Shown: positions 3,301 to 60,237 of the stretch, in pieces
Layout of the letters: every line of letters starts with the position of its first letter
Position numbering within the stretch: position 1 is the first letter of the stretch
NCBI GenBank assembly: GCA_044225175.1
Contig: JBGAJA010000002.1
Span: forward strand, 280,991 to 344,990
Direction: 5' to 3'
Length of the DNA: 64,000 nt
Source: Candidatus Omnitrophota bacterium
GTDB taxonomy: Bacteria > Omnitrophota > Gorgyraeia > Zapsychrales > Fredricksoniimonadaceae
Position numbers and translations under genes: made by a program
Notes under the pieces: model-generated
The model's database searches: none
Told to the model about the DNA's origin: nothing
Seen by the model: only the letters and a program-made list of their open reading frames with translations

Positions 3301-6300
3301 GTGAGTTAAAGAAATTGAGAGGTTTACAAGACATTGACTTTACATTAGAAATTGCCGAGAAAAGATTAGGGCGCTTCACGTATGTTATTAAAGCTTACGG
3401 CCAAGAATTTAATACACGATTAGGGGTTTTTACAAGTGTGTCTAAACTATTTATAAGAACATTCTTTAATAAACCAAGGCCATACCTCTTGCCTGCACCG
3501 CATATAAGCAAGGCTTTTAGTCCAGGGGAAGATGCAAAGAATATAGAAGAAGGTTCTCCTAGTCAAAGTCGAGATGTTGATTCAAGAGATAAGATTCAGA
3601 CGACAACTGTTTTCATGGGTAGTCTGAGTGTTATGCGTGCAGGACCAGAAATACATTCCGTTGATAGCATTAATTGGACGTATGAATTGGCCCATCGCTA
3701 TGGTCCAGTTCTTTCACACGATTTAGTATTAATCCTTGGAGCTTTTGTCTTAATAGTAATGTTGTTTTTTAACAGAATTATTACAGAGTGGATCTTTAAG
3801 TTTATATCGAAAAGTAATGCAAGAATTCTTAATAAGGATAGCAATCCCTTGAAGATCAGAATGACCTCCATTGAAAACCACACCATAGTCATCCAATACT
3901 CCAGAAACAAATTCACAAATATCTATCGCAGCACAGACAATGATGTTTTGCTGATGGATTCCCAGAGACGATCAAAAGATATTTTTGTATATAAGGCTGC
4001 CCAGGCAATTTCAATTAAAGAAGATCAAAAGTTGAGACATGGAGACATAGAGATATTGGTTGAACCAGGCAGTATGGTTACGATTAAGAATTTCGGGAAA
4101 AAGCCAATTAAGATTATGACTGAGTCCGAACTCTCATTAGATGACCAGGACTATTTTAGAAGAGGTACAGCGGTAGTATTAGGTGGCGGTTATTTGTTGC
4201 TTGTATTTAATCGTATTTTGTTTGATTTTAACCTCATAGAAGTTGCTGGATTAACTCTGGCCCTCATCTTATTTCTAGTAAAAAGAACAGACGATGATAA
4301 ACCCACAAAGTTAAATTATTTAATTTATCGCATCCTTAATAGAACAGAAAACATCATTAATTACATTGATGATTTCTTTAGAAGGACAAACAAGAAGCGC
4401 TTCTTCCTTATTCCTCAATTTTTCAGGTCATGGAAACCATCTACTCAGTCTTTTAATGATGATCAAATTGATTTTGTGGTTTCTTATTTGCATGGTTTAG
4501 TCGCATCTCGTAAGATTTTCTCAGAGAATGATTTAATATGGACGTATCGACTAGCTAAGAGCTGCATTCAAGTTAGACAAATCGATCGTTTTGTTCAGGA
4601 ACATTTGGAAAAATGGGCTAGGGAGAGCCGGGATTTACGTGTTCTTTCGGCTATTATTACCGGATGGATCCAAGCTCCCCAAAGCAGAGGAGGCATTGAT
4701 AGATTAACGCAGATATTGATTAAAACCCACGGATTTTCTAAGAAAACAGTTACATCCTCTCTTTTAATGAAAATTGCCAAGCAAGGTGCGGACCAGGCGA
4801 GGTATGAATCGGTAGATGATGATGTCTCAGATGATAGGGTCCCTTCTTATAGAAAACAACTGAGGGACCGCTCGATCTACAAGCATCAACGTTTCGGTCT
4901 TCAAAAGAAAATTTTAAGACGCGTAGCATCTATCGATGTCACGCGACTAAAAGCATTCTTAGAAGAAGAGTTGTCCAACATCTCATCACAGAAAAATTCA
5001 ACTCAAGGGTGCGTTAAAACAATCATAGTCTTTGGAAGTTTTCTTTATGGAACTCGTCGAGAACCAACTGATTTGGATGTTTATGTCATTGTTGAAGGGG
5101 TTGAAGTTAAACAACTCGTTAAGAAGACAGTAAACATTCCTAGATATGTGTTCTCAGATGAATACTCACGATTAACACGATTTGCAGATTTGCATTTTAT
5201 GAATCGAGAAGAGTTAATAAGAGACATAGGTTTTCGAACATCAGCAGCGAATGTCGGAATTGTGTTAAGAGGAGAAGGATTAAGAGATGAGCCTTTGACC
5301 AATGCTAGATCCTCCGATTTTAATCGTCTTGTCCGTGCCTCAACGGCCATGAAACATGGCATGAAAATGATAGAAAGCACTGTCGAACATGATCGTCGTT
5401 ATCCTGATGCCATTCCTGTATGGAGGGCCAAAGCATGGAGACGTATTACGGAATCCCATTTATTTATCCAAGAGGTAGATTCTTCTGTGACAGCGCACGA
5501 GGATTTTATTGAGGAACTATTATATGGGATGGAGCGTTACAATGAAGATCCTCATAAGAACCATGATGATTTTCAGTGGCAGCTTAAGCGCACTCACGCC
5601 TTAGTAATAGCATCATTACATTATGCCCGCATGTCATTAGTTTGGCGTTATTTAAGAAGTGTTCGTCCTCCTCAAGTTCCGACAATAAGACATAAGAGGG
5701 CCTTTGGCATAACGGTTTTGCCTGTTGTGTTGTCTGGTTTATTTACCGCAGCATGCTCCATCATCTTTATTGTAAGACACCAGTTATCGATGGAATACGA
5801 GTCTCTAGTGAACATAGGAGCGCGCCTAGAAATTTTAATACCAATTCTCTTGCTGTCAGGGATCTTTGCAGTACCTTTCCGCAGAAATTCTAAGAAATCT
5901 GCTGTGATTAAAATTCAAGGCAAGCCAGAGGAAGAATATTTGTTAATGCTGAGGTTTTTCTTTGTCAATTTATTGTCTATCAATTTTCGGCTTATGCAAA
6001 TTACAACTCAGGAGAGCCCAGATCGAAGAAAGTTCAGACCCATTATTAAAGACTTAGTGAACATTAGCCGTAATTTTAAGGAACGGTTGAGCGCTACACA
6101 GAAAGCTTATGATCAAGAATCAATTCCTTATAAACGAAATTTACTTTCTTCCCGCATCGAGTGGATGACAATTATGAATACTAAACTGATCAGGGCTTGG
6201 GGTTTATTGACAGATAAAGCTAATGGCCCCGCGGTCAGCCAAATTCTTTTATTTCAAGCCGATTCTTTGTTTAAGAGATACACCCAAGCCCATTTAAAGA

Positions 6301-46839: not shown

Positions 46840-47640
46840 ATGCCAAATTTAACAACTAAATCAGGAATTAATTGGAATTACGAACTCTCTGGCCAGGGAG
46901 AGCCCTTGGTGTTTATTCATGGATTTGGCGGGTCTCTTCGCTGGTGGGGAAGCCAAGTTTCTTCTTTTGAAAAAGACTTTCATGTGCTTCGTTTGGATTT
47001 ACCAGGACATGGACAAAGCTCGTGGAAGCCTTGCACCTTGCTTTCCATGGCGCAAGACATTAAACAAATTCTGGAACACTTAAATATGCTGCGTGTGAAC
47101 GTGGTGGCCAGTTCTTTTGGGGGTTTGATTGCGATTGAATTATTTCGCATCATGCATGAGGATGTGTCTCGAATTAGCTTTGTAGGTTCTTTACCTAAGT
47201 TTGCTAGAAGTAACGAATACCCAGCAGGTCTTGATATTGAACACATTAGAACGATGAGTCATCAGTTTGAAGGGGATTATGGGGCGATCTTAGACATCTT
47301 TTTCCGATCCTTGTTTACTATGGAAGAGCGACAATCGGAAGAGTTTAAAAAGTTGAAAGACTTGCGCCAAAGTGAACCTTTGCCTCAAAAGGAAGCTTTA
47401 AATGCTTTTTTAGAAATTTTAGAAAAAACAGATTTGCGTGATCGCCTCGCTTCGCTTATTTGTCCAACTCAATTCATTACAGGTGCTCATGATTATCTTT
47501 GTCCTAAAGAAGTGATGGAGTGGATCCAGGACCACATGCTAAACGCCCGTTTAGATTTTATCGATGGCAGCGGACACCTGCCTTTTTTAACTAAAGTGAA
47601 ACAATACAATGACTTACTCGAAAACTTCCTTATCAATTAA
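46840..47640 (+). CDS. bioH: Alpha/beta hydrolase, probable pimeloyl-ACP methyl ester esterase (BioH-like)
   Basis: HGFGGS and ASSFGG nucleophile-elbow motifs are present. The gene sits between bioF and bioC. Confidence 0.7.
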   Translation: MPNLTTKSGINWNYELSGQGEPLVFIHGFGGSLRWWGSQVSSFEKDFHVLRLDLPGHGQSSWKPCTLLSMAQDIKQILEHLNMLRVNVVASSFGGLIAIELFRIMHEDVSRISFVGSLPKFARSNEYPAGLDIEHIRTMSHQFEGDYGAILDIFFRSLFTMEERQSEEFKKLKDLRQSEPLPQKEALNAFLEILEKTDLRDRLASLICPTQFITGAHDYLCPKEVMEWIQDHMLNARLDFIDGSGHLPFLTKVKQYNDLLENFLIN

Positions 47641-48397
47641 GGACATTCAAAAATCATTTAGCCAGGCTGCCAAACAGTACGATGAACTTTCCCAAGTTCA
47701 TCAAAAATATGCCCTGCGAATGGTAGAAGAGATTTCGGTGTTAAACGCCAATCTATCAAATGTATTGGATGTTGGCTGTGGCACAGGTTATTTGTCTTCT
47801 AAGCTTAAAGCAAGATTTCCTCGGGCCAAAATTACCGGCTTAGATTTTGCCTCCGGCATGATTACTCAGGCCCAAGAAAATTACGCTGGTATTGATTTTA
47901 AGTTGGCCGATGCCTCTCACATGCCTTTCGAAGGCAACAGTTTTGATTTGGTATTGTCTAATTTTGCTTATCAGTGGATGGCTGATCTAACCCAAGCCTT
48001 TGGGGAAGCTCACAGGGTCTTGATGCCTCGCGGACAATTCACCGCGACATTATTTGGATATAGGACATGCGAAGAACTTTTTTTAAGTTTAGAACATGCG
48101 GGCGTTAATATGGCCTCGTTCAATCGTTTTGCCACTATTTCTGAAGTCCAAGAGCATCTTGAGAAGGCGGGATTTGCTTCTTTAGAAGTTCAAGAGGAAG
48201 TCATCAAGATTGGCTTCAAAGACCTGTTTCATCTCTTGAGTTGGTTAAAAGCTATTGGCGCTAATCAATTATCGTCTGGAAAATTCTTAGGCCCCAAGGC
48301 CCTTGAGAAGGCCAGCAACTTTTGTTTCAAAAATTTCGCTAATCAGAACCATATTTTGATTTCTTTCGAAGTGATTAAAATTCATGCGACTAAATAG
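47609..48397 (+). CDS. bioC: Malonyl-ACP O-methyltransferase
   Basis: The SAM motif is VLDVGCGTGYLS. The protein is BioC-like and about 260 aa long. The start codon is uncertain because it overlaps the bioH end by about 30 nt. Confidence 0.8.
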   Translation: MTYSKTSLSIKDIQKSFSQAAKQYDELSQVHQKYALRMVEEISVLNANLSNVLDVGCGTGYLSSKLKARFPRAKITGLDFASGMITQAQENYAGIDFKLADASHMPFEGNSFDLVLSNFAYQWMADLTQAFGEAHRVLMPRGQFTATLFGYRTCEELFLSLEHAGVNMASFNRFATISEVQEHLEKAGFASLEVQEEVIKIGFKDLFHLLSWLKAIGANQLSSGKFLGPKALEKASNFCFKNFANQNHILISFEVIKIHATK

Positions 48398-48407
48398 GAA
48401 TATATGT

Positions 48408-48780
48408 GTCATTGCGAGGAGCAAAGCGACGAAGCAATCTTAAATTATGTTGACAAAACAATATTACGTTTATTTTTTAACGAATTAGAATAATAAAGTT
48501 CTGTATGTAGGAGTAACGAACGATTTAAAGCGCAGAACCTATGAGCACAAGAGTGGATTGGTCGATGGATTCACTAAGAAATATCGTGTGAATAAATTAG
48601 TCTACTATGAAGTTGCCGAACTGATTGAAAGTGCGATTTTAAGAGAAAAACAGATTAAAGCTGGTTCGAGGAAAAAGAAAACGGACTTAATAACAAGTTT
48701 TAATCCTAATTGGGAAGACCTAGCTGACAAACTATAAAAAGATTGCTTCCTCAGTCGCTTCGCTTCTTCCTCGCAATGAC
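48408..48780. mobile_element. Small GIY-YIG (COG2827-type) cassette bounded by imperfect inverted repeats, inserted in the bioC-bioD spacer
   Basis: The left IR at 48408-48439 is gtcattgcgaggagcaaagcgacgaagcaatc. The right IR at 48741-48780 reads, as its reverse complement, gtcattgcgaggaagaagcgaagcgactgaggaagcaatc. The pair encloses a roughly 96-codon GIY-YIG ORF. Confidence 0.55.
48447..48737 (+). pseudogene. GIY-YIG nuclease-superfamily ORF (URI domain) with an in-frame TAG at codon 14
   Basis: The translation is MLTKQYYVYFLTN*NNKVLYVGVTNDLKRRTYEHKSGLVDGFTKKYRVNKLVYYEVAELIESAILREKQIKAGS... The GIY (YVYFL) and YIG (LYVGVT), R and E motifs are present. The TAG at 48486-48488 interrupts the frame. 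Neighbouring genes in this window (bioC, the giant gene) use TAG as a stop. Confidence 0.5.
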
Positions 48781-48813
48781 AAAATAAGTCTCTATATTTA
48801 GGAGAATCTTTAT

Positions 48814-49485
48814 ATGAAGCCTTATGAAACAAAGATAATCTTTATCACAGCAACAGATACAGGGGTTGGTAAGACTGTTGCAACAGCTGTGCTTGGAGTG
48901 CTCTTGCAATCTCAAGGTTTTAGGGTGGGGGTGCTTAAACCTGTTCAGTGTTCGGGGGATGATGCGGCATTTTTAAAGAGAATACTGAAAGTCGCGGATC
49001 CGCTTGCTGTCATCAATCCGATTTATGCCCCTGAAGCTTTGTCACCTCATTTGGCACTCAAACGGGCTGGACTTACATTTGATCTAAAGAAAATCAAACA
49101 ATCGTTATTAATAATGCGTCGCTGCTATGATGTTGTTTTGATTGAGGGGGCAGGGGGATTGATGGTGCCTTTAAGGCCAAATTACTATGTGGCAGACTTA
49201 ATTGGTGAGCTTAAAGCTGAGGTGGTGATTGTTTCCCGCTTAGGGTTGGGGACCATCAACCACACGTTGCTTACGATTAATGAAGCAAAGGCGCGTAAGA
49301 TTAAGATCAAAGGAGTTTTGTTTTCAGATAGTCGTCCTGGCAAAAAGACCCTTCCTGAACAAACAAACCCCCAAGAAATTGCTAAGTTATCTAAAATCAA
49401 AGTGCTTGGAACCATTCCCTATTTGAAATCATTAACTCCAAAGAACATTCTAAAAACATGCCAACACTTAAAACTCAACGTTTAA
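48814..49485 (+). CDS. bioD: Dethiobiotin synthetase
   Basis: The P-loop is ITATDTGVGKTV. GGAG lies upstream of the ATG. Confidence 0.9.
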   Translation: MKPYETKIIFITATDTGVGKTVATAVLGVLLQSQGFRVGVLKPVQCSGDDAAFLKRILKVADPLAVINPIYAPEALSPHLALKRAGLTFDLKKIKQSLLIMRRCYDVVLIEGAGGLMVPLRPNYYVADLIGELKAEVVIVSRLGLGTINHTLLTINEAKARKIKIKGVLFSDSRPGKKTLPEQTNPQEIAKLSKIKVLGTIPYLKSLTPKNILKTCQHLKLNV

Positions 49486-50765
49486 AAGCTATCGATAAGA
49501 AATACCTCTGGCATCCTTTCACCCAAATGAAGGATTGGCTGGCTGATTCCAATCAGCCACTTGTCATTGATCGGGCCCAAGGAGTTTATCTGTATGACAC
49601 AGACGGCCGAAAATACATAGATGGCGTCTCGTCTTTATGGGTCAATGTCCATGGGCATAGACATCCAGTCATTGATCGAGCCATCAAACAACAAATTGAC
49701 CGCCTAAGTCATTCCACATTACTAGGTTTGGCAAATACCCCTGCTGTTGAGCTGTCTAAGAAGTTAATCGACATTGCTCCCAAAGGTTTATCTAAGGTCT
49801 TTTATTCTGACAATGGATCAACCGCGGTTGAAATCGCCCTCAAACAAGCTTATCAATATTGGCAGAATGTAGGACAGACAAAGAAGCGAACGCTCGTGCA
49901 TTTATCTAACTCTTATCATGGAGACACATTAGGGTCAGTCAGCGTCGGGGGCATAGACTTATTTCATACGGTGTATGGGGGGCTTATATTTAAGACGATT
50001 GGACTTAAAGCACAGGGCCCGGGGGCGACCCAGGAATTTGAACATCTTCTTAAGACCAAAGCATCTTCTATGGCTGCCTTAGTTGTGGAACCTTTGGTAC
50101 AGGGAGCAGCAGGGATGATTATGTGGCCTAAAGGGGTGCTCAAGGAATTTAGAAGATTATGCACAAAGTACGATGTCTTTCTAATTGTCGATGAAGTAGC
50201 CACCGGATTTGGCCGTACAGGTAAGATGTTTGCCTGTGAGCATGAGAATGTGACCCCAGATTTTTTATGCCTAGCCAAAGGTCTAACCGGCGGCTACCTG
50301 CCGCTTGCCGCCACACTTACAACTGAGAAAGTCTACAATGGATTTCTGGTTCAAAAAGGTGTCAGACACCTTTTTTCTACGTTCTTTCATGGACATACGT
50401 ATACCGGTAATCCTTTGGCTTGTGCGGCCGCCTTGGCAAACTTGGAAATTTTTCAAAAAGAGCGTACTTTAGACAAGCTGGCCCCAAAAATTAAATTCCT
50501 AGCCCAGGAATTGAAAATGTTTTATAATCTGCCCTCTGTTTTGGATGTCCGCCAATGCGGCTTTATGGGTGGAATTGAGATCAAAGGACGCCCCGAAGAC
50601 CGCCTAGGTGCCAAGATTTGTCAGGAACTTCGAGCTAAGGGAGTCCTATTAAGACCTTTAGGCAATGTGATTGTCATTATGCCGCCTTTGGTCATCACGA
50701 TTAAAGAATTGAAATATTTATTGGAATGTGTTTATCAAACAATTAAAGATCATGGAACAAAATAA
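49458..50765 (+). CDS. bioA: Adenosylmethionine-8-amino-7-oxononanoate aminotransferase
   Basis: The protein is a class III aminotransferase with DEVATGFGRTG. It carries one 23-bp palindromic element in frame (QKGVRHLFS). Confidence 0.93.
   Translation: MPTLKTQRLKAIDKKYLWHPFTQMKDWLADSNQPLVIDRAQGVYLYDTDGRKYIDGVSSLWVNVHGHRHPVIDRAIKQQIDRLSHSTLLGLANTPAVELSKKLIDIAPKGLSKVFYSDNGSTAVEIALKQAYQYWQNVGQTKKRTLVHLSNSYHGDTLGSVSVGGIDLFHTVYGGLIFKTIGLKAQGPGATQEFEHLLKTKASSMAALVVEPLVQGAAGMIMWPKGVLKEFRRLCTKYDVFLIVDEVATGFGRTGKMFACEHENVTPDFLCLAKGLTGGYLPLAATLTTEKVYNGFLVQKGVRHLFSTFFHGHTYTGNPLACAAALANLEIFQKERTLDKLAPKIKFLAQELKMFYNLPSVLDVRQCGFMGGIEIKGRPEDRLGAKICQELRAKGVLLRPLGNVIVIMPPLVITIKELKYLLECVYQTIKDHGTK
50353..50375. 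repeat. 23-bp palindromic element, copy 1: aaaaaggtgtcagacaccttttt
   Basis: It lies inside bioA and is read as K-G-V-R-H-L-F. Confidence 0.85.
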
Positions 50766-55563: not shown

Positions 55564-58500
55564 ATGAGAACCCCCATATCTATCCTAACTTTGATGTGTT
55601 TCTTTTTCACAAGCATATGTGGCCCTATGCCTGTGAATGCCCAGGAAATTCATTTAACAAAACCTGGGGTAATGGTCCATTTAAGCACTCCTGTAACCCC
55701 ACCTCTACTCAAAGGAATCAAGGTCCATCCAGACAACCCATTTAGGTTCGATTTTATCCTGGATACAGGGTCACGTTCCGTCGATGATGCACATAAATTG
55801 AAGGAAGAGTCCAACCGACTAATCAAGTACTTTTTAGCCTCTTTAACCATTCCCGAAGCGGACCTTTGGGTGAACCTAAGCCCCTATGAAAAAAACCGCA
55901 TTGTCCCCGAAAGCTTTGGCCAAACCGAGATGGGACGTGACCTATTAGCCCAGGACTACATGCTAAAGCAGATCACAGCCAGCCTTATGTACCCAGAAGA
56001 TGAGATAGGAAAGAGATTCTGGAGAAGAATCTATGAAGAATCAGCCAAAAGGTATGGAACAACCAACATTCCAGTCAACACATTCAACAAGGTATGGATA
56101 GTCCCCGAGAAAGCCGTAGTCTATGAGAATGCAAAGGCCGGAACAGCCTATGTAGTGGAATCCAGGCTGAAAGTGATGTTAGAAGAAGACTACGTAGCCT
56201 CCAAAAAGGTGTCAGACACCTTTTTGAAGGGGCAGAGTGATAAAAAGGTGTCTGACACCATTTTGCACAGTCAGATCATACGGGAGGTTGTTATTCCTGA
56301 ATTGACCAAAGAAATCAATGAAGGATCCAATTTTGTGCAGCTTAGGCAGGTTTATAGTTCCTTGATTTTAGCTACTTGGTACAAGAAGAAGATCAAGGAT
56401 TCACTATTGGCGCAGGTGTATGCGGATAAGAATAAGGTCATGGGTCTTGGGTATATGGGAGGCGGATCGGAACAGATTTACCAACGATACCTCCAAGCTT
56501 TTAAAAAAGGCGTTTATAACTACATCAAAGAAGAACCCGATCCCATAACCCAACAATCTGTCCCTCGAAAATATTTCTCTGGTGGAATGGCATTTGATCA
56601 TGCCATGAATGTAACGATTAAATATACGGGTGAAATTGCAGGTCCAATTAATTCTGCCATGCAAGTGACTGTTGATATGTCAATAGCAAATCATGTAGAG
56701 TTAGAGCATTCTACCGACCAAGCTATGAGCGCAGTCCTCCATCAAAGCGATTTGCCCAGGCTATATTGGGGAAATATTGTTCAGCGTTTAATCTTTTCTT
56801 TAGTGGATCGCTTTAGAACCGGCGAGAACATTCAAAGAGAGGATCTTGTTACATCCGCACAGGCGCTCACACAACAATTTACCCCTGAAGCTACTGCTTC
56901 TGAAAAGCAATTATTCGAAGATGTTATGAAAGGGGCAGATCTAAAAGGGTTAGGTAAGACAAGGTTAAATGTCGCTACCATTATGGCTGCTTTTATTGCT
57001 CAACAAGCTATTGGGGCAGATACAGATTCTCAAGAATTCACTAATGTTTATCTGCCAAGAGATATGGGCTTAGGATACACCATTGAAAAAACGTTAGCAT
57101 CATTAAAAGATGAGACAAGAGAACCTGGCATATATTATCTTAGTCGAGATAGTTTGGAAGAAGGAGTTTATTCAAGAGTCAGCAACATTATTGAGAATGT
57201 AAAAGCCAAACAAAAATTAATTAATGCCTTAGCAGAGACTCCTAAAGAGCGAAGACGGATATTTATTCAATACGTAGGTCGAGAGATCATGGAAGATGAT
57301 CTTTGCAGACCAGCCGCAAAAAGGATTCTTAAAGAATTAAAAGAGTTGGGCATTATTAAGAACAACGCCAAATTAAGATTCGTGGATACAGGATATAAAA
57401 CTTTTCCTATCATGCTTCAAGCCATCATCGCTGCAGCGAGTGAATTAGATGCTTTTCATATTCAAACGGAAGGCCTCGTCATTAACAGTTCCATTGAAGC
57501 TTATCTTGATCAAATTGATCCTAAGAAGTGGGACGCGCCATCTCAAAGACTTGCTTCATTCAATCCTTTTTCAAAATTAGCAAGACCGGGAATTTTGGGA
57601 TTTATGGAGGATGACAATGCCTTACCTCACCCATTTCGGTTTAGCAAAACTCATAAAGGAATGGTTGCAACAGACGCCAAAACACAAAGAGAAGCGTACG
57701 CAACTCAGATTATGTTTGGTTTTGGTGCGATTGAATATCAGAGGTTAATTGATGAATTAGCTAAAAATTTGCTCGCTCAAGGGGTTTCAAAATTAGATTC
57801 TAAAGAGATATCTCAAGAATTAATTGCCCAGTTGGTAGGCCTCACTAAAGCAGACCAGAGTGATGATTATGTGCGAGAGCTAGATATAAAAACCGACCTA
57901 TATTTTACTGAGTTCAAAACAGTCTTTGCAGGTCGTATGAATTCAATGCAAAACAACATTCATGACGTCTATGGTTATAAGGATTTTAAAATAAAAGAAA
58001 TGAACCCGGATATTTTATCAACTATCCTGAAAATATCAGAAGAGAAATACAAGATAGATGTCAGTTTTCACAGATCGATTAAAGAATTTTATCCAAGAAA
58101 AGAACACATGAATTTTCTAAGTGCTAATTTTAAAATAAAAAACGAATTAATTTTCGATACAATCTCACAATTTAAAAAGGCTCCACATGAATCAAAACTA
58201 AAATCTTTGCTTTTTTATTTTAAAAAATTTGGAAAATTAATTAATACTCCAAGAAATCTTTTCAAAGACTCACAAGAAAAAGAAGATACTGACCCTGCCA
58301 TGAAATCCTCTAAAACCATAAAAAATGGAATCATCGGCGCAATTGCAGCAGCTATTACAAGTAGTTTGAGCGGTTGTTATACATCTGAGGCGGGGAAGAA
58401 TTATCAAAATACCTTGGAACGTAGAAAAGAAGTCATTCCCGCCAAAGAGGGAGACCACACTCCCTTATCAAGTGCAATTTGGGATTCATCTATTGAAAGA

Positions 58501-60237
58501 ACAGATGATGGACACAGTTCAGAAAAAATAAGAACTGCGCAAAGACCTATCGAAGAAAAAATATCTGACAAAGCGCAAATACCACCAGACTACGCCGCCC
58601 AAGGTATAAATAACCGAAGAATTTTAACAAATTTCTTTAGACAATTTCCCCAAGGAGCAAAGGGTTTGGATGAGGAAGTGGCATCCAGATTTGATCACCT
58701 TCCTCCAGAAGCCCTCCAGGCAGGATTGGAAGTACTAAAAGAACTTCTGGGAGAGGAAGGGCTTAGCGAACTTTTCTCAACAAAACAAGGTTTTTATACT
58801 GGCGGAATTTCGTTTATGTATCTATTTATAAAAGAACCGACAGAACTTAAAGAGTCATTGCTCACGGTGAAAGCAGGATTGAAACAATATAGATACAAAG
58901 GAATAAATCTAGTCAGTGAGCTTATCAACATCTTGAACCTATCTAGTAAATCGAGACTAAACGAAAAGATTCAGAAGCTCGAGATGATCTGGCCTGGCGT
59001 TGCTAACGAAAGTGTGGTTAAAGATCCATTAATATTTTTTAATGAATTAAAAGATATAAACTTGGATGATTTAGATAAGGTTGAAGCGCTCGAATTGAAG
59101 TATCCAGGAATCAAAGCAATTATGAGAAAGTTTATAAAGGACCATACAGATTTCTTTCCTGAAGCTCTCAATAGATTGGTTAATGATGTTTTAAAAGACC
59201 ATGATTCGCAGTTGACAGAAGCGTTCTTAAGCCTGGACGTTGATAAAATCAAAATGATTGTAAAGGCCAAGATGCCTGAAGCCCATCAGAGAGTCATGGA
59301 TTTTGAAAGAAAATATTCCAAATGGAAAGATATGGAAGATTCAAGCCTCAAACATTCTTTGATGGTACAAGCCATTATGGATGCATTTGTCGTCACGCTG
59401 CATAATTTCTTTGAAGCAGATATTCCAGCCATGCCTGCTGAGATCATGGCAGAGACATATCTCTTAATTTTGGGATATTCAAAATTGGGAAATTTGACTA
59501 CTTCAAAGTTTGAAATTAATCCGAATGACTTGGGCGGAGGTTTCCAATGGAAAAGTACCATGACACATGAGATATGGCACCATTTCATTAGTCCTTATTT
59601 AAAGGCAGGAGGTAGAGCTTCCTTTAAAGAAGCAGCCATGAGTGAATTAGGTGCAGATTTAAGCTGGTTGGCTTTATACCAAATCATGAATGAGCAGGCG
59701 CCAATTGTGGAAGCAATCAAGTCTTTCTTGAAATATGACGAGTCATTGAAGTTCATTGAAGAACGTTGGCCATTTTTGAATTATCATGGCGTAGGACGGG
59801 GAGCTCTGACTGCGCTTATCAAAGCCATTGAGAAACAAAAAGGTAAAGTTGATTATGTGGCATTATTGAAATCATACATGAATTACATTCAAGCCAATGG
59901 TCACAATTCCCGCGTAGGAGTGTTCATTCAACATGCATCAATACAATTAGGTCTTCACGAAGACCCCTATTTAAGAAGAATTGCTAAGCAAGCCGATCAG
60001 ATGGACCGTGCTATGAAGGCTGAAACTGTGGGTGGTATTGATTTGACCGTGGGCAATTTGAACTTGCAAACACAAAGCTCTAATGGTGAAATATCATTCA
60101 AAATTGATCCAGCTATGTTAGAACAATTGCAAAATGCTTCTGGTTTTTCACCTGTGATCATTCAAATGCAGCCGCTGACTGATGTAAAGGGATTTTTAGG
60201 AATGAAAGACAGAGAAAAGGAAACGATCAGCGTATGA
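55564..60237 (+). CDS. Very large secreted protein P1 (1557 aa) of unknown function, with a signal peptide, a conserved N-terminal domain shared with P2, and an HEIWH motif near the C-terminus
   Basis: The signal-peptide-like N-terminus is MRTPISILTLMCFFFTSICGPMPVNA. The N-terminal roughly 330 aa are homologous to the next gene. TMTHEIWHH is an HExxH motif. Two palindromic elements are embedded in the gene. Confidence 0.75.
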   Translation: MRTPISILTLMCFFFTSICGPMPVNAQEIHLTKPGVMVHLSTPVTPPLLKGIKVHPDNPFRFDFILDTGSRSVDDAHKLKEESNRLIKYFLASLTIPEADLWVNLSPYEKNRIVPESFGQTEMGRDLLAQDYMLKQITASLMYPEDEIGKRFWRRIYEESAKRYGTTNIPVNTFNKVWIVPEKAVVYENAKAGTAYVVESRLKVMLEEDYVASKKVSDTFLKGQSDKKVSDTILHSQIIREVVIPELTKEINEGSNFVQLRQVYSSLILATWYKKKIKDSLLAQVYADKNKVMGLGYMGGGSEQIYQRYLQAFKKGVYNYIKEEPDPITQQSVPRKYFSGGMAFDHAMNVTIKYTGEIAGPINSAMQVTVDMSIANHVELEHSTDQAMSAVLHQSDLPRLYWGNIVQRLIFSLVDRFRTGENIQREDLVTSAQALTQQFTPEATASEKQLFEDVMKGADLKGLGKTRLNVATIMAAFIAQQAIGADTDSQEFTNVYLPRDMGLGYTIEKTLASLKDETREPGIYYLSRDSLEEGVYSRVSNIIENVKAKQKLINALAETPKERRRIFIQYVGREIMEDDLCRPAAKRILKELKELGIIKNNAKLRFVDTGYKTFPIMLQAIIAAASELDAFHIQTEGLVINSSIEAYLDQIDPKKWDAPSQRLASFNPFSKLARPGILGFMEDDNALPHPFRFSKTHKGMVATDAKTQREAYATQIMFGFGAIEYQRLIDELAKNLLAQGVSKLDSKEISQELIAQLVGLTKADQSDDYVRELDIKTDLYFTEFKTVFAGRMNSMQNNIHDVYGYKDFKIKEMNPDILSTILKISEEKYKIDVSFHRSIKEFYPRKEHMNFLSANFKIKNELIFDTISQFKKAPHESKLKSLLFYFKKFGKLINTPRNLFKDSQEKEDTDPAMKSSKTIKNGIIGAIAAAITSSLSGCYTSEAGKNYQNTLERRKEVIPAKEGDHTPLSSAIWDSSIERTDDGHSSEKIRTAQRPIEEKISDKAQIPPDYAAQGINNRRILTNFFRQFPQGAKGLDEEVASRFDHLPPEALQAGLEVLKELLGEEGLSELFSTKQGFYTGGISFMYLFIKEPTELKESLLTVKAGLKQYRYKGINLVSELINILNLSSKSRLNEKIQKLEMIWPGVANESVVKDPLIFFNELKDINLDDLDKVEALELKYPGIKAIMRKFIKDHTDFFPEALNRLVNDVLKDHDSQLTEAFLSLDVDKIKMIVKAKMPEAHQRVMDFERKYSKWKDMEDSSLKHSLMVQAIMDAFVVTLHNFFEADIPAMPAEIMAETYLLILGYSKLGNLTTSKFEINPNDLGGGFQWKSTMTHEIWHHFISPYLKAGGRASFKEAAMSELGADLSWLALYQIMNEQAPIVEAIKSFLKYDESLKFIEERWPFLNYHGVGRGALTALIKAIEKQKGKVDYVALLKSYMNYIQANGHNSRVGVFIQHASIQLGLHEDPYLRRIAKQADQMDRAMKAETVGGIDLTVGNLNLQTQSSNGEISFKIDPAMLEQLQNASGFSPVIIQMQPLTDVKGFLGMKDREKETISV
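56203..56225. repeat. 23-bp palindromic element, copy 4: aaaaaggtgtcagacaccttttt
   Basis: It lies inside P1 and is read as K-K-V-S-D-T-F-L. Confidence 0.85.
56242..56264. repeat. 23-bp palindromic element, copy 5 (degenerate): aaaaaggtgtctgacaccatttt
   Basis: It lies 39 nt after copy 4, is read as K-K-V-S-D-T-I-L, and has the central T variant. Confidence 0.75.

What the first reader, a model, noticed from the sequence alone, without database searches (positions are those of the whole stretch)
48398..48813. GIY-YIG mini-cassette with inverted repeats inserted inside the biotin operon, with its ORF interrupted by an in-frame TAG
Imperfect inverted repeats of 32-40 bp (gtcattgcgagga...gaagcaatc) bracket a 96-codon GIY-YIG (URI-domain) ORF between bioC and bioD. 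The YVYFL, LYVGVT and RR...EH motifs are all present. Codon 14 is TAG, while flanking genes use TAG as a terminator. Small GIY-YIG genes of this type are widely regarded as selfish homing-like elements. This one has landed within a co-transcribed biosynthetic operon and appears to be decaying, or to depend on readthrough.
Basis: partly seen in the sequence, partly recalled or inferred. Interest (0 to 1): 0.6.

Follow-up and report, generated by a model that had tools for sequence, protein, structure and literature searches.

The report
Dead Ssn nuclease cassette in biotin operon
Between the biotin genes bioC and bioD sits a 373-bp cassette, a tiny GIY-YIG nuclease gene killed by one stop codon and bracketed by two inverted DNA hairpins, which belongs to the Ssn nuclease/hairpin-repeat family described in 2025, so it is a real insertion but of a known kind.

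Summary
Window 48408-48780 is a 373-bp cassette: a 32-nt hairpin arm, a 96-codon single-domain GIY-YIG ORF (48447-48737) with TAG at codon 14 (48486-48488), and an inverted 40-nt arm. It lies between bioC and bioD.

Two other assemblies carry the same TAG. Close homologues mostly have Trp (TGG) at that codon, and TAG is a normal stop here, so this is a recent nonsense mutation.

Relatives with the same birA-bioFHCDA-mnmA synteny have overlapping bioC/bioD, that is, empty sites. One relative has an ORF-less hairpin doublet at that junction.

The cassette is not new. It matches the Ssn family (Chenal et al. 2025, PMC11893778): about 94-aa GIY-YIG nucleases that bind a tagged hairpin repeat (NTS/SRM) in single-stranded DNA and cut just upstream of it. 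The repaired protein is 47% identical to gonococcal SsnA (E=3e-27) and keeps the catalytic Tyr/Tyr/Glu.

Two points go beyond the paper. The arms are a two-tier hairpin class that the published SRM search pattern misses. The filled, empty and doublet sites support the mobility that the authors only hypothesised.

Verdict: a pseudogenised new member of a known kind. "Homing-like" is only loosely right.

The parts
47609..48397 (+). bioC (malonyl-ACP O-methyltransferase), the upstream neighbour; its stop codon is TAG
   Evidence: TIGR02072 BioC E=2.4e-51, 174.9 bits, just below the 184.95 cutoff. Stop codon.
48408..48780 (+). Whole Ssn-SRM cassette, GTCA...TGAC, 373 bp
   Evidence: Boundaries come from comparing 34 two-armed cassettes (354-519 bp). 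Outside the arms only position -1 (T/C) and +1 (A/G) are conserved, and there is no target-site duplication. The cassette is absent from syntenic relatives.
48408..48439 (+). Left SRM-type hairpin arm: GTC tag, ATTGC stem, GA loop, inner GAGCAAAGCGAC, GAA loop, GCAAT stem, C tag
   Evidence: The same architecture occurs upstream of homologous genes across phyla. The 5' GTC and 3' C tags correspond to the nucleotides shown to matter for SsnA cutting and binding (PMC11893778).
48447..48737 (+). ssnA-like single-domain GIY-YIG nuclease gene, 96 codons; a pseudogene
   Evidence: Pfam PF01541 E=6e-17. 47% identity over 88 aa to the N. gonorrhoeae SsnA orthologue, E=3e-27, with Y9, Y20 and E67 aligned to SsnA Y6, Y17 and E64. 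The AF2 model of the 82%-identical homologue P0003 has pLDDT 95 and is closest to UPF0213, Slx1 and the UvrC N-terminal domain.
48486..48488 (+). In-frame TAG at codon 14, a nonsense mutation
   Evidence: Identical in L001 and L002. Trp in 15 of 28 close homologues.
48741..48780 (-). Right SRM-type hairpin arm, the same motif on the minus strand, with inner segment GAAGAAGCGAAGCGACTGAG; it starts 3 nt after the TAA
   Evidence: In other copies the stop codon likewise abuts or overlaps the right arm.
48800..48804 (+). AGGAG Shine-Dalgarno of bioD, 9 nt before the ATG at 48814
   Evidence: Read directly. In relatives with empty sites bioC and bioD overlap and are probably translationally coupled.
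48814..49485 (+). bioD (dethiobiotin synthase), the downstream neighbour
   Evidence: TIGR00347 E=7.9e-44, 149.7 bits, above the 83.3 cutoff.

Best explanation
It is a pseudogenised member of the Ssn / SRM system: a ~370-bp cassette made of an ssnA-like gene flanked by two inverted copies of its cognate hairpin repeat. It inserted into the short bioC-bioD junction of an Omnitrophota-like genome.

How an intact copy works is known for four characterised homologues and inferred here. The 94-96-aa monomeric GIY-YIG nuclease binds the repeat only when the repeat is a hairpin in single-stranded DNA and only in one orientation. It then cuts a few nucleotides 5' of the GTC tag.

Because the two arms are inverted with their tags facing outward, the predicted cuts fall just outside the cassette. 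One would be on the top strand left of 48408 and the other on the bottom strand right of 48780. This placement is an inference.

In this window a TGG-to-TAG change at codon 14 truncates the protein to 13 residues. The copy is therefore inert and is presumably carried along by read-through transcription of the bio operon, with bioD translated from its own Shine-Dalgarno sequence.

Cassettes of this subfamily behave like selfish, horizontally moving units. ORF-less single hairpins and head-to-head doublets are their far more numerous relatives.
For: Family membership:
- Pfam GIY-YIG match.
- 47% identity, E=3e-27, to the gonococcal SsnA orthologue, with the catalytic Tyr, Tyr and Glu aligned (tblastn E=2e-17).
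- Single domain, 96 aa. The AF2 model of the 82%-identical homologue P0003 (pLDDT 95) is closest to UPF0213, Slx1 and the UvrC N-terminal domain.

Published properties of the family: PMC11893778.

Arms:
- Two copies of one oriented motif, against 0.05 expected by chance.
- 64 of 84 homologous loci have at least one arm in the same orientation and 34 have both. The paper reports 71% and 42%.
- The inner helix covaries: 65.7% of cells paired against 42.9% in shuffles, covariation score 0.487 against 0.175, 0 of 500 shuffles as high, and 27-34% paired when the partner is slid.
- Compensated outer-stem variants exist: ATTAC/GTAAT and ACTGC/GCAGT.

Insertion:
- Empty sites in the P0125 contig and in L217/L218, and an ORF-less doublet in L216.

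Unit-like spread:
- Homologues at 54-77% identity occur in more than 15 phyla.
- Nearest-neighbour proteins share the arm family in 10 of 11 non-ATTGC loci. This includes a Saccharibacteria and an Anaerolineae copy at 86% identity, both with TTTC arms.
- All four Logan-assembled contigs that end at a cassette break inside an arm.

Decay:
-.
Against: - The published degenerate SRM search pattern does not match either window arm, and it matches only 3 of 80 homologous loci. The arms are therefore a divergent repeat class, and cognate recognition is inferred, not shown.
- The window arms fold weakly under nearest-neighbour DNA parameters (z = +0.2 and +1.4 to +1.6). Their stability would rest on tandem G.A pairs that the model does not credit.
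- No other copy of the arm or the gene lies in the 64-kb window, and the rest of the genome could not be scanned.
- CDD cd10448 membership could not be tested.
- No closely related genome (above 71% BioD identity) was available to date the insertion.
- Mobility of Ssn cassettes has not been demonstrated by anyone. A hydrolytic GIY-YIG nuclease alone cannot carry out strand transfer.
Confidence: 0.85

Rival explanations
1. A classical free-standing GIY-YIG homing endonuclease (Seg- or I-TevI-like). It would cut double-stranded empty bioC-bioD alleles and be copied in by recombinational repair. The inverted repeats would be incidental.
For: It has the GIY-YIG fold. It sits in an intergenic position between conserved genes, with filled and empty alleles. 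It shows signs of decay typical of selfish nucleases.
Against: - It has only 96 aa and no DNA-binding domain.
- Characterised homologues show no activity on dsDNA (PMC11893778).
- The same arms flank homologues at unrelated loci in many phyla. That does not fit site-specific homing into a single target gene junction.
- PHROGs gives only weak matches to families of unknown function.
- It is rare in viral contigs: 11 loci.
Confidence: 0.05
2. The ORF is a secondary invader of a pre-existing hairpin doublet. On this view REPIN-like head-to-head doublets spread by some other route, and the nuclease gene homes into their loops using the arms as homology.
For: Head-to-head doublets with 13-26-nt spacers are the commonest paired arrangement, 91 against 39 tail-to-tail. 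The cassette is exactly a doublet with the ORF in the loop. The motif is abundant where the gene is absent: at least 120 viral contigs carry the motif, but only 1 of those 120 has the gene nearby and only 11 viral loci encode it.
Against: - ORF and arms are packed as one unit. The stop codon abuts or overlaps the right arm, and the left arm ends 7-22 nt before the ATG.
- Arm families co-vary with protein clades.
- The L216 doublet spacer (ctctttaagaATGacc...) resembles a cassette leader plus ATG, which suggests deletion of an ORF rather than a virgin target. This is weak evidence.
Confidence: 0.1
3. The TAG is not a defect. The gene would be expressed by programmed read-through or a reassigned codon, or the TAG is a sequencing error.
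For: Every other conserved residue is intact, including all 30 columns invariant among 29 sequences. There is only one lesion.
Against: - The same TAG is found in two other run-level assemblies.
- TAG terminates bioC and 3 of 20 long ORFs. No other long ORF is interrupted by TAG.
- The window has no tRNA-CUA.
- In-frame stops in other copies lie at different codons, so this is not a conserved recoding site.
Confidence: 0.04

Closest known systems
Ssn nuclease family with NTS/SRM hairpin repeats (SsnA of Neisseria meningitidis; Chenal et al. 2025, Nat Commun 16:2388, PMC11893778)
   Same: - A single-domain ~94-aa GIY-YIG protein, 47% identical to gonococcal SsnA, with the catalytic Tyr, Tyr and Glu conserved.
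- The gene is flanked on both sides by oriented hairpin repeats with a 5' YGTC tag and a 3' C tag.
- The same fractions of homologues carry repeats: my 76% and 40% against the published 71% and 42%.
- Single repeats are far more numerous than genes.
   Different: - The gene here is dead (TAG at codon 14).
- The arms are a two-tier hairpin: a 5-bp ATTGC/GCAAT stem, a GA/GAA purine loop and a variable covarying inner helix, 25-50 nt in all. The published SRM pattern does not match them.
- The tags face outward from the gene, whereas at the gonococcal locus they face inward.
- The host is an Omnitrophota-like lineage.
- Biochemistry is untested here.
Neisseria dRS3 repeats / NIME arrays
   Same: GTCATTCCCGCGCAGGCGGGAATC has the same GTCA-stem...stem-TC layout. 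16 copies surround the gonococcal ssnA within 3.3 kb.
   Different: It has a single uninterrupted stem, a different stem sequence and hundreds of copies per genome. This window has only the two arms in 64 kb.
REP/REPIN-RAYT systems and IS200/IS605 (TnpA)
   Same: A small nuclease gene is bracketed by inverted hairpin repeats. The repeats also occur as singles, doublets and arrays. The hairpins are recognised in ssDNA. There is no target-site duplication.
   Different: The enzyme is a hydrolytic GIY-YIG nuclease, not an HUH tyrosine transposase. No strand-transfer chemistry is known for it. The cassette is about half the size of IS200.
Free-standing GIY-YIG homing endonucleases (T4 Seg proteins, I-TevI)
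   Same: The same catalytic fold, an intergenic location between conserved genes, and a selfish-looking distribution with frequent decay.
   Different: Those enzymes carry DNA-binding domains and cut dsDNA at a cognate empty site. This protein is the catalytic domain only, and its characterised relatives do not cut dsDNA.
Bacterial UPF0213 / Slx1-like minimal GIY-YIG proteins (PDB 1zg2; Dunin-Horkawicz et al. 2006, PMC1564403)
   Same: Closest solved structure by sequence profile (E=1.9e-5) and by fold. Both are minimal single-domain forms.
   Different: Only about 28% identity. The window protein has a C-terminal FNPxWxDL motif with an invariant Asn. No hairpin-repeat association has been described for UPF0213.

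Membership tests
Ssn site-specific ssDNA nucleases (cd10448) | Single-domain GIY-YIG protein of about 94 aa with no extra DNA-binding domain | tested here: met
   96 codons. Pfam PF01541 covers residues 5-78. The AF2 model of the 82%-identical homologue P0003 is one compact domain, pLDDT 95.2.
Ssn site-specific ssDNA nucleases (cd10448) | Homology to characterised SsnA (the paper's criterion is E < 1e-10) | tested here: met
   tblastn against an N. gonorrhoeae record gives E=2e-17. The pairwise comparison gives 47% identity over 88 aa, E=3e-27. That the gonococcal ORF is the SsnA orthologue is inferred from its 94-aa length, its Y6/Y17/E64 positions and its NTS context.
Ssn site-specific ssDNA nucleases (cd10448) | Catalytic residues equivalent to SsnA Y6, Y17 and E64 | tested here: met
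   Y9, Y20 and E67 align with them. They are invariant in 50 homologues.
Ssn site-specific ssDNA nucleases (cd10448) | Assignment to CDD model cd10448 | not testable with these tools
   No CDD library was available. NCBIfam gives no hit.
Ssn site-specific ssDNA nucleases (cd10448) | Gene flanked by oriented hairpin repeats (SRM) on both sides | tested here: met
   Arms at 48408-48439 (+) and 48741-48780 (-), with a YGTCA 5' tag, a palindromic stem and a TC 3' tag. The same layout holds in 34 of 84 homologous loci on both sides and 64 of 84 on at least one side.
Ssn site-specific ssDNA nucleases (cd10448) | Repeats match the published degenerate SRM search sequence HGTCWYN(0-2)YYVSBRHN(0-5)WNVSBRGN(0-2)RNCYNB | tested here: not met
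   0 hits in the window, 3 of 80 homologous loci with a hit, and 9 hits in the 3.3-kb Neisseria locus as a positive control. The pattern was hand-built from 29 genomes of 4 phyla, so this shows a divergent repeat class rather than absence of repeats.
Ssn site-specific ssDNA nucleases (cd10448) | Binds and cuts only ssDNA, only the forward strand of the repeat, a few nt upstream | not testable with these tools
   This needs biochemistry. The G.T versus A.C count at paired positions (39 against 28, p=0.22) shows no significant bias towards one strand. The 156 G.A/A.G cells favour the GTC-tagged strand as the folding strand.
Ssn site-specific ssDNA nucleases (cd10448) | Intact, translatable gene | tested here: not met
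   TAG at codon 14 in three assemblies. This copy is a pseudogene of the family.
GIY-YIG homing endonucleases | Catalytic domain linked to a sequence-specific DNA-binding domain (NUMOD, zinc finger or HTH) | tested here: not met
   96 aa with no further domain.
REPIN-RAYT / IS200-IS605 | HUH (Y1) transposase | tested here: not met
   The only domain is GIY-YIG.
REPIN-RAYT / IS200-IS605 | Hairpin repeats flank the gene in inverted orientation and also occur as dispersed doublets | tested here: met
   (91 head-to-head doublets).
Classical TIR insertion sequences / MITEs | Target-site duplication of fixed length | tested here: not met
   There are no consistent flanking direct repeats among 34 two-armed cassettes.
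Curated RNA families (Rfam 15) | Covariance-model match at the arms | tested here: not met
   No match at E<=1 in window 47000-50000. Nothing at gathering score on the arms of 14 homologous loci.

The most novel reading that the evidence does not exclude
Ssn-SRM cassettes of this two-tier-hairpin class are genuinely mobile, near-autonomous elements of only ~350-400 bp, about half the size of IS200. On this reading they:
- insert without target duplication into short junctions between co-directional genes;
- move between phyla as ORF-plus-arms units;
- decay into ORF-less doublets.

The filled, doublet and empty bioC-bioD series would then be a natural record of that cycle. The ATTGC-type arm would define a new nuclease/hairpin specificity pair that the published SRM pattern misses.
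Probability: 0.4. Interest if true: 0.65.

Novelty: new member of a known kind. Interest (0 to 1): 0.33.

Why it matters
The locus itself is an inert relic and has little consequence beyond uncoupling bioC from bioD.

Its value is as a data point for an open question raised in the Ssn paper: are NTS-ssnA-NTS units mobile elements or domesticated host genes? Here the same gene junction is occupied by a full cassette in one lineage, holds an ORF-less doublet in a second, and is empty in others. Sister cassettes sit inside other biosynthetic operons, always co-oriented. ORF and arm type travel together across phyla. These are the signatures expected of a selfish mobile unit.

The ATTGC-type two-tier hairpin is very abundant. 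It escapes the published SRM search pattern, so current censuses of Ssn-associated repeats probably undercount them. New enzyme/hairpin specificity pairs for ssDNA tools are available in this clade.

Tried and rejected
- **Rfam.** No family matches the arms, either at E<=1 on the window or at gathering score on 14 homologous loci.
- **Protein libraries.** NCBIfam and PADLOC give no hit. PHROGs gives only weak matches to families of unknown function.
- **Early literature searches.** GIY-YIG with inverted repeats, REP, MITE, COG2827/YhbQ, and the motif sequence itself all found nothing. The Ssn paper surfaced only after I recognised the Neisseria dRS3 repeat around the gonococcal homologue. Before that I had been treating the system as undescribed.
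- **Target-site duplication.** None.
- **Orientation of single hairpins relative to genes.** No clear bias using naive ORFs. Many copies fall in spurious ORFs of high-GC contigs, so the test is unreliable.
- **RNA versus DNA folding strand from G.U versus A.C counts.** Not significant.
- **Promoter or terminator inside the cassette on the + strand.** None.
- **Plasmid carriage.** Only 32 of 72,556 records, mostly chromids.
- **Phage carriage of the gene.** 11 loci.
- **A further relative's junction (L235).** Rearranged and uninformative.
- **Source genome.** The source appears to be a 793-kb NCBI contig, but look-ups returned only Logan contigs. Other copies in the same genome could not be counted.
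- **Supplements of the Ssn paper.** Not held.

Full report
**1. What is in the sequence**

Window 48447-48737 (+) is a 96-codon ORF ending in TAA. Its codon 14 (48486-48488) is TAG. With that codon repaired, the protein matches Pfam GIY-YIG (PF01541) over residues 5-78 at E=6e-17.

The ORF is bracketed by two copies of one motif in inverted orientation:
- Left arm, 48408-48439 on the plus strand: GTC-ATTGC-GAG-GAGCAAAGCGAC-GAA-GCAAT-C.
- Right arm, 48741-48780 on the minus strand: the same boxes with a 20-nt inner segment.

The outer 14 nt are perfectly complementary and the inner 14 nt are 93% complementary. A generalised form of the motif finds only these two copies in 64 kb, against 0.05 expected from shuffles.

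The left arm ends 7 nt before the ATG. The right arm begins 3 nt after the TAA.

The neighbours are bioC (47609-48397, stop TAG) and bioD (48814-49485, with its own AGGAG at 48800-48804). They lie in a birA-bioF-bioH-bioC-[cassette]-bioD-bioA-mnmA string on one strand.

**2. Is the TAG real, and what does it mean?**

- Two contigs assembled independently from two other sequencing runs (L001 from SRR28480385, L002 from SRR28480388) are identical to the window across the whole cassette, including the TAG.
- Among 28 close homologues (68-82% identity, nearly all 96 aa), the aligned residue is Trp in 15. TGG to TAG is therefore the simplest path, though Gln, Tyr, Leu and Lys also occur there and are each one step from TAG.
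- All 30 columns invariant in that alignment are intact in the window copy, so the lesion is recent.
- TAG terminates bioC and 3 of the 20 ORFs of at least 200 codons. No long ORF is split by a TAG.
- The window encodes no tRNA-CUA.
- Three of 83 other copies carry a single in-frame stop, each at a different codon.

I conclude that this is an ordinary nonsense mutation in a decaying copy, not recoding.

**3. Is it an insertion?**

BioD homologues with the same synteny show what the junction looks like elsewhere:
- In the contig carrying P0125 (70% BioD identity), bioC and bioD overlap by 4 nt.
- In L217/L218 (66% identity), they overlap by 14 nt.
- In L216 (GCA_964583975.1, 71% identity), a 124-nt spacer holds an ORF-less head-to-head doublet of a sister motif: GTGTCATCCTGAGG..GAAGGATCTC, a 19-nt spacer, then GAGATTCTTCG..CTCAGAATGACA. 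It folds at -21.3 kcal/mol, z=-3.6.

The same junction is thus empty, holds a doublet, or holds a full cassette in different lineages. No relative closer than 71% was found, so the insertion cannot be dated tightly.

**4. The cassette is one of a very large family**

The repaired protein has at least 7,965 relatives at E<=1e-10 in the 90%-clustered collection. A search with the homologue P0003 finds 4,799 clusters at 50% identity with E<=1e-10.

A genome scan returned at least 569 loci. The best 80 are at 54-77% identity. They span Omnitrophota, Patescibacteria, Chloroflexota, Cyanobacteria, Ignavibacteria, Bacteroidota, Clostridia, Nitrospirota, Planctomycetes (Kuenenia), Spirochaetes and others.

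Among 84 loci:
- 64 have at least one arm in the expected orientation.
- 34 have both arms.

Two-armed units measure 354-519 bp from GTCA to TGAC. There is no target-site duplication, and nothing outside is conserved except T/C at -1 and A/G at +1. The stop codon typically abuts or overlaps the right arm.

The gene is co-oriented with both neighbours in 36 loci and opposed to both in 4. Sister copies sit in these gene strings:
- riboflavin (L003)
- topA/xerC (L005)
- moxR/batA (L006)
- heme (L220)

. Landing in an operon is typical for this element.

All four Logan-assembled contigs that reach a cassette break inside an arm, as expected of a repeat.

**5. The arms are structured hairpins**

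The general form is Y|GTC-[A X4]-GA-[G + variable helix + C]-GA(A)-[X4' T]-C.

The outer stem occurs in compensated variants such as ATTAC/GTAAT and ACTGC/GCAGT. Sister families have TCCT, TTCT, TTTC or CCCC in place of TTGC.

I tested the inner helix on a register-fixed alignment of 117 distinct arms. This alignment was built by me: the loops were replaced by AAAA, and the outer stem was imposed by the search and so was not scored. Results:
- 65.7% of cells are paired, against 42.9 ± 1.3% in shuffles.
- The covariation score is 0.487 against 0.175 (0 of 500 shuffles reach it).
- Only 27-34% of cells are paired when the partner is slid by 1-3 columns.
- All seven pairs show changes on both sides.

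Tandem G.A/A.G mismatches are strongly enriched, with 156 cells. G.T against A.C (39 against 28) shows no significant strand bias.

The window's own arms belong to the common GAGC-NNA-GCGAC inner class. They are weak by nearest-neighbour energies.

The motif is far more abundant than the gene:
Only one of those loci has a GIY-YIG gene nearby.
- Only 11 viral loci encode the protein.
- Head-to-head doublets (91) outnumber tail-to-tail pairs (39) and tandem pairs (48).

Protein nearest neighbours share the arm family in 10 of 11 non-TTGC loci. This includes a Saccharibacteria copy and an Anaerolineae copy at 86% identity, both with TTTC arms. ORF and arms therefore travel as a unit.

**6. What it is**

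The link came from a tblastn hit in Neisseria gonorrhoeae. That 94-aa gene lies among 16 copies of GTCATTCCCGCGCAGGCGGGAATC in 3.3 kb, which is the classical dRS3 repeat. Searching dRS3 together with GIY-YIG retrieved Chenal et al. 2025 (Nat Commun 16:2388, PMC11893778).

That paper shows the following:
- SsnA of N. meningitidis is 94 aa, a single GIY-YIG domain, CDD cd10448.
- It binds the NTS repeat (CGTCATTCCCGCGMAVGCGGGAATCYRG) only as single-stranded DNA and only in the forward orientation.
- The three nucleotides 5' of the palindrome (GTC) matter most for cutting. The C just 3' of the palindrome matters most for binding.
- dsDNA and RNA are not substrates.
- Y6A, Y17A and E64A abolish cutting.
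- 71% of homologues have an Ssn-related motif (SRM) nearby and 42% have one on both sides.
- Three further homologues cut their own repeats.
- In N. meningitidis the enzyme lowers transformation by NTS-bearing DNA.
- The NTS-ssnA-NTS architecture is noted as IS-like, by analogy with IS200/IS605 and REP/BIME. Mobility is offered only as a hypothesis.

A 2026 preprint already uses SsnA-associated repeats as a benchmark class.

**7. Membership**

The repaired window protein is 47% identical over 88 aa to the gonococcal SsnA orthologue (E=3e-27). Its Y9, Y20 and E67 align to Y6, Y17 and E64.

An AlphaFold model of the 82%-identical homologue P0003 (pLDDT 95.2) is closest to UPF0213 BH0048, then to Slx1 and to the UvrC N-terminal domain.

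The arms carry the same YGTC 5' tag and C 3' tag. My independent 76% and 40% repeat-association figures reproduce the published 71% and 42%.

One defining feature fails literally. The published degenerate SRM pattern gives no hit in the window and hits in only 3 of 80 homologous loci, while it hits the Neisseria locus 9 times. I read this as a divergent, two-tier SRM class that the hand-built pattern does not cover, not as non-membership.

The cd10448 assignment and the biochemistry could not be tested.

**8. How it most likely works**

- Shown for four relatives: the nuclease recognises its hairpin in ssDNA and nicks just 5' of the tag.
- Inferred here: because the window's arms are inverted with tags outward, the cuts would fall just outside 48408 on the top strand and just outside 48780 on the bottom strand.
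- Inferred from distribution: the cassette is a selfish unit that can be gained, as at the bioC-bioD junction, and can decay to pseudogenes and perhaps to ORF-less doublets. How a purely hydrolytic nuclease would achieve insertion is unknown.
- In this window: the protein stops after 13 residues, so the copy is inert. There is no terminator-like or promoter-like site on the + strand inside it. bioD has its own ribosome-binding site, so the operon probably reads through. This last step is an inference.

**9. Verdict**

This is a real feature, correctly observed. It is a pseudogenised new member of a family that has been known since 2025.

'Homing-like' is only loosely apt.

The modest added value lies in three points:
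- the filled, doublet and empty series at one junction;
- the co-orientation and lack of target-site duplication;
- the abundant ATTGC-type hairpin class that current SRM searches miss.

Noticed in passing
window 60-28430 (+): A single uninterrupted ORF of 9,456 aa that may start before the window. A second large ORF of 1,557 aa lies at 55564-60237. Giant genes are typical of Omnitrophota (from my own knowledge).
   Followed up: no
L216 3892-3988 (GCA_964583975.1), the bioC-bioD spacer of a 71%-BioD relative: An ORF-less head-to-head doublet of sister hairpins (TCCT and TTCT stems) sits at exactly the junction that holds the cassette in the window. Its 25-nt spacer, ctctttaagaATGaccttttttgag, resembles a cassette leader plus start codon, so it may be a deletion derivative.
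   Followed up: partly
L006-L009, about 3330-3710 (same moxR|GIY|DUF58 locus in different peat metagenomes): The spacer after the cassette varies (138, 227, 278 and 418 nt) through different numbers of single arms plus another ~50-nt repeat, GACACGAACCGTACGAAGTCGAAGCAAGTGAGGCTCAAGCCTTTTGACAC. This is population-level copy-number variation of a second repeat family.
   Followed up: no
The commonest inner segment gives GCGAAGC/GCGNAGC, the classic very stable DNA mini-hairpin.
   Followed up: partly
L234 (N. gonorrhoeae NZ_CP119140.1 1880760-1884041): At the gonococcal ssnA the nearest NTS copies have their GTC tags facing the gene, the opposite of the outward-facing arrangement that dominates in the window's subfamily. 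This 2.17-Mb record is filed as a plasmid in PLSDB but is evidently the chromosome.
   Followed up: partly
L195 5001-5279 and 5427-5705; also L213, L137, L208: Two ssnA-like genes within a few hundred bases of each other (tandem or nested cassettes).
   Followed up: no
L150 8548-8666: A molybdenum-cofactor riboswitch (RF01055, 68.6 bits) lies amid a dense array of 18 hairpin arms in 10 kb.
   Followed up: no
window 47609-47640 and 49458-49485: bioH/bioC overlap by 32 nt and bioD/bioA by 28 nt, so the operon is otherwise tightly coupled. bioC scores just below the TIGR02072 cutoff (174.9 against 184.95).
   Followed up: no
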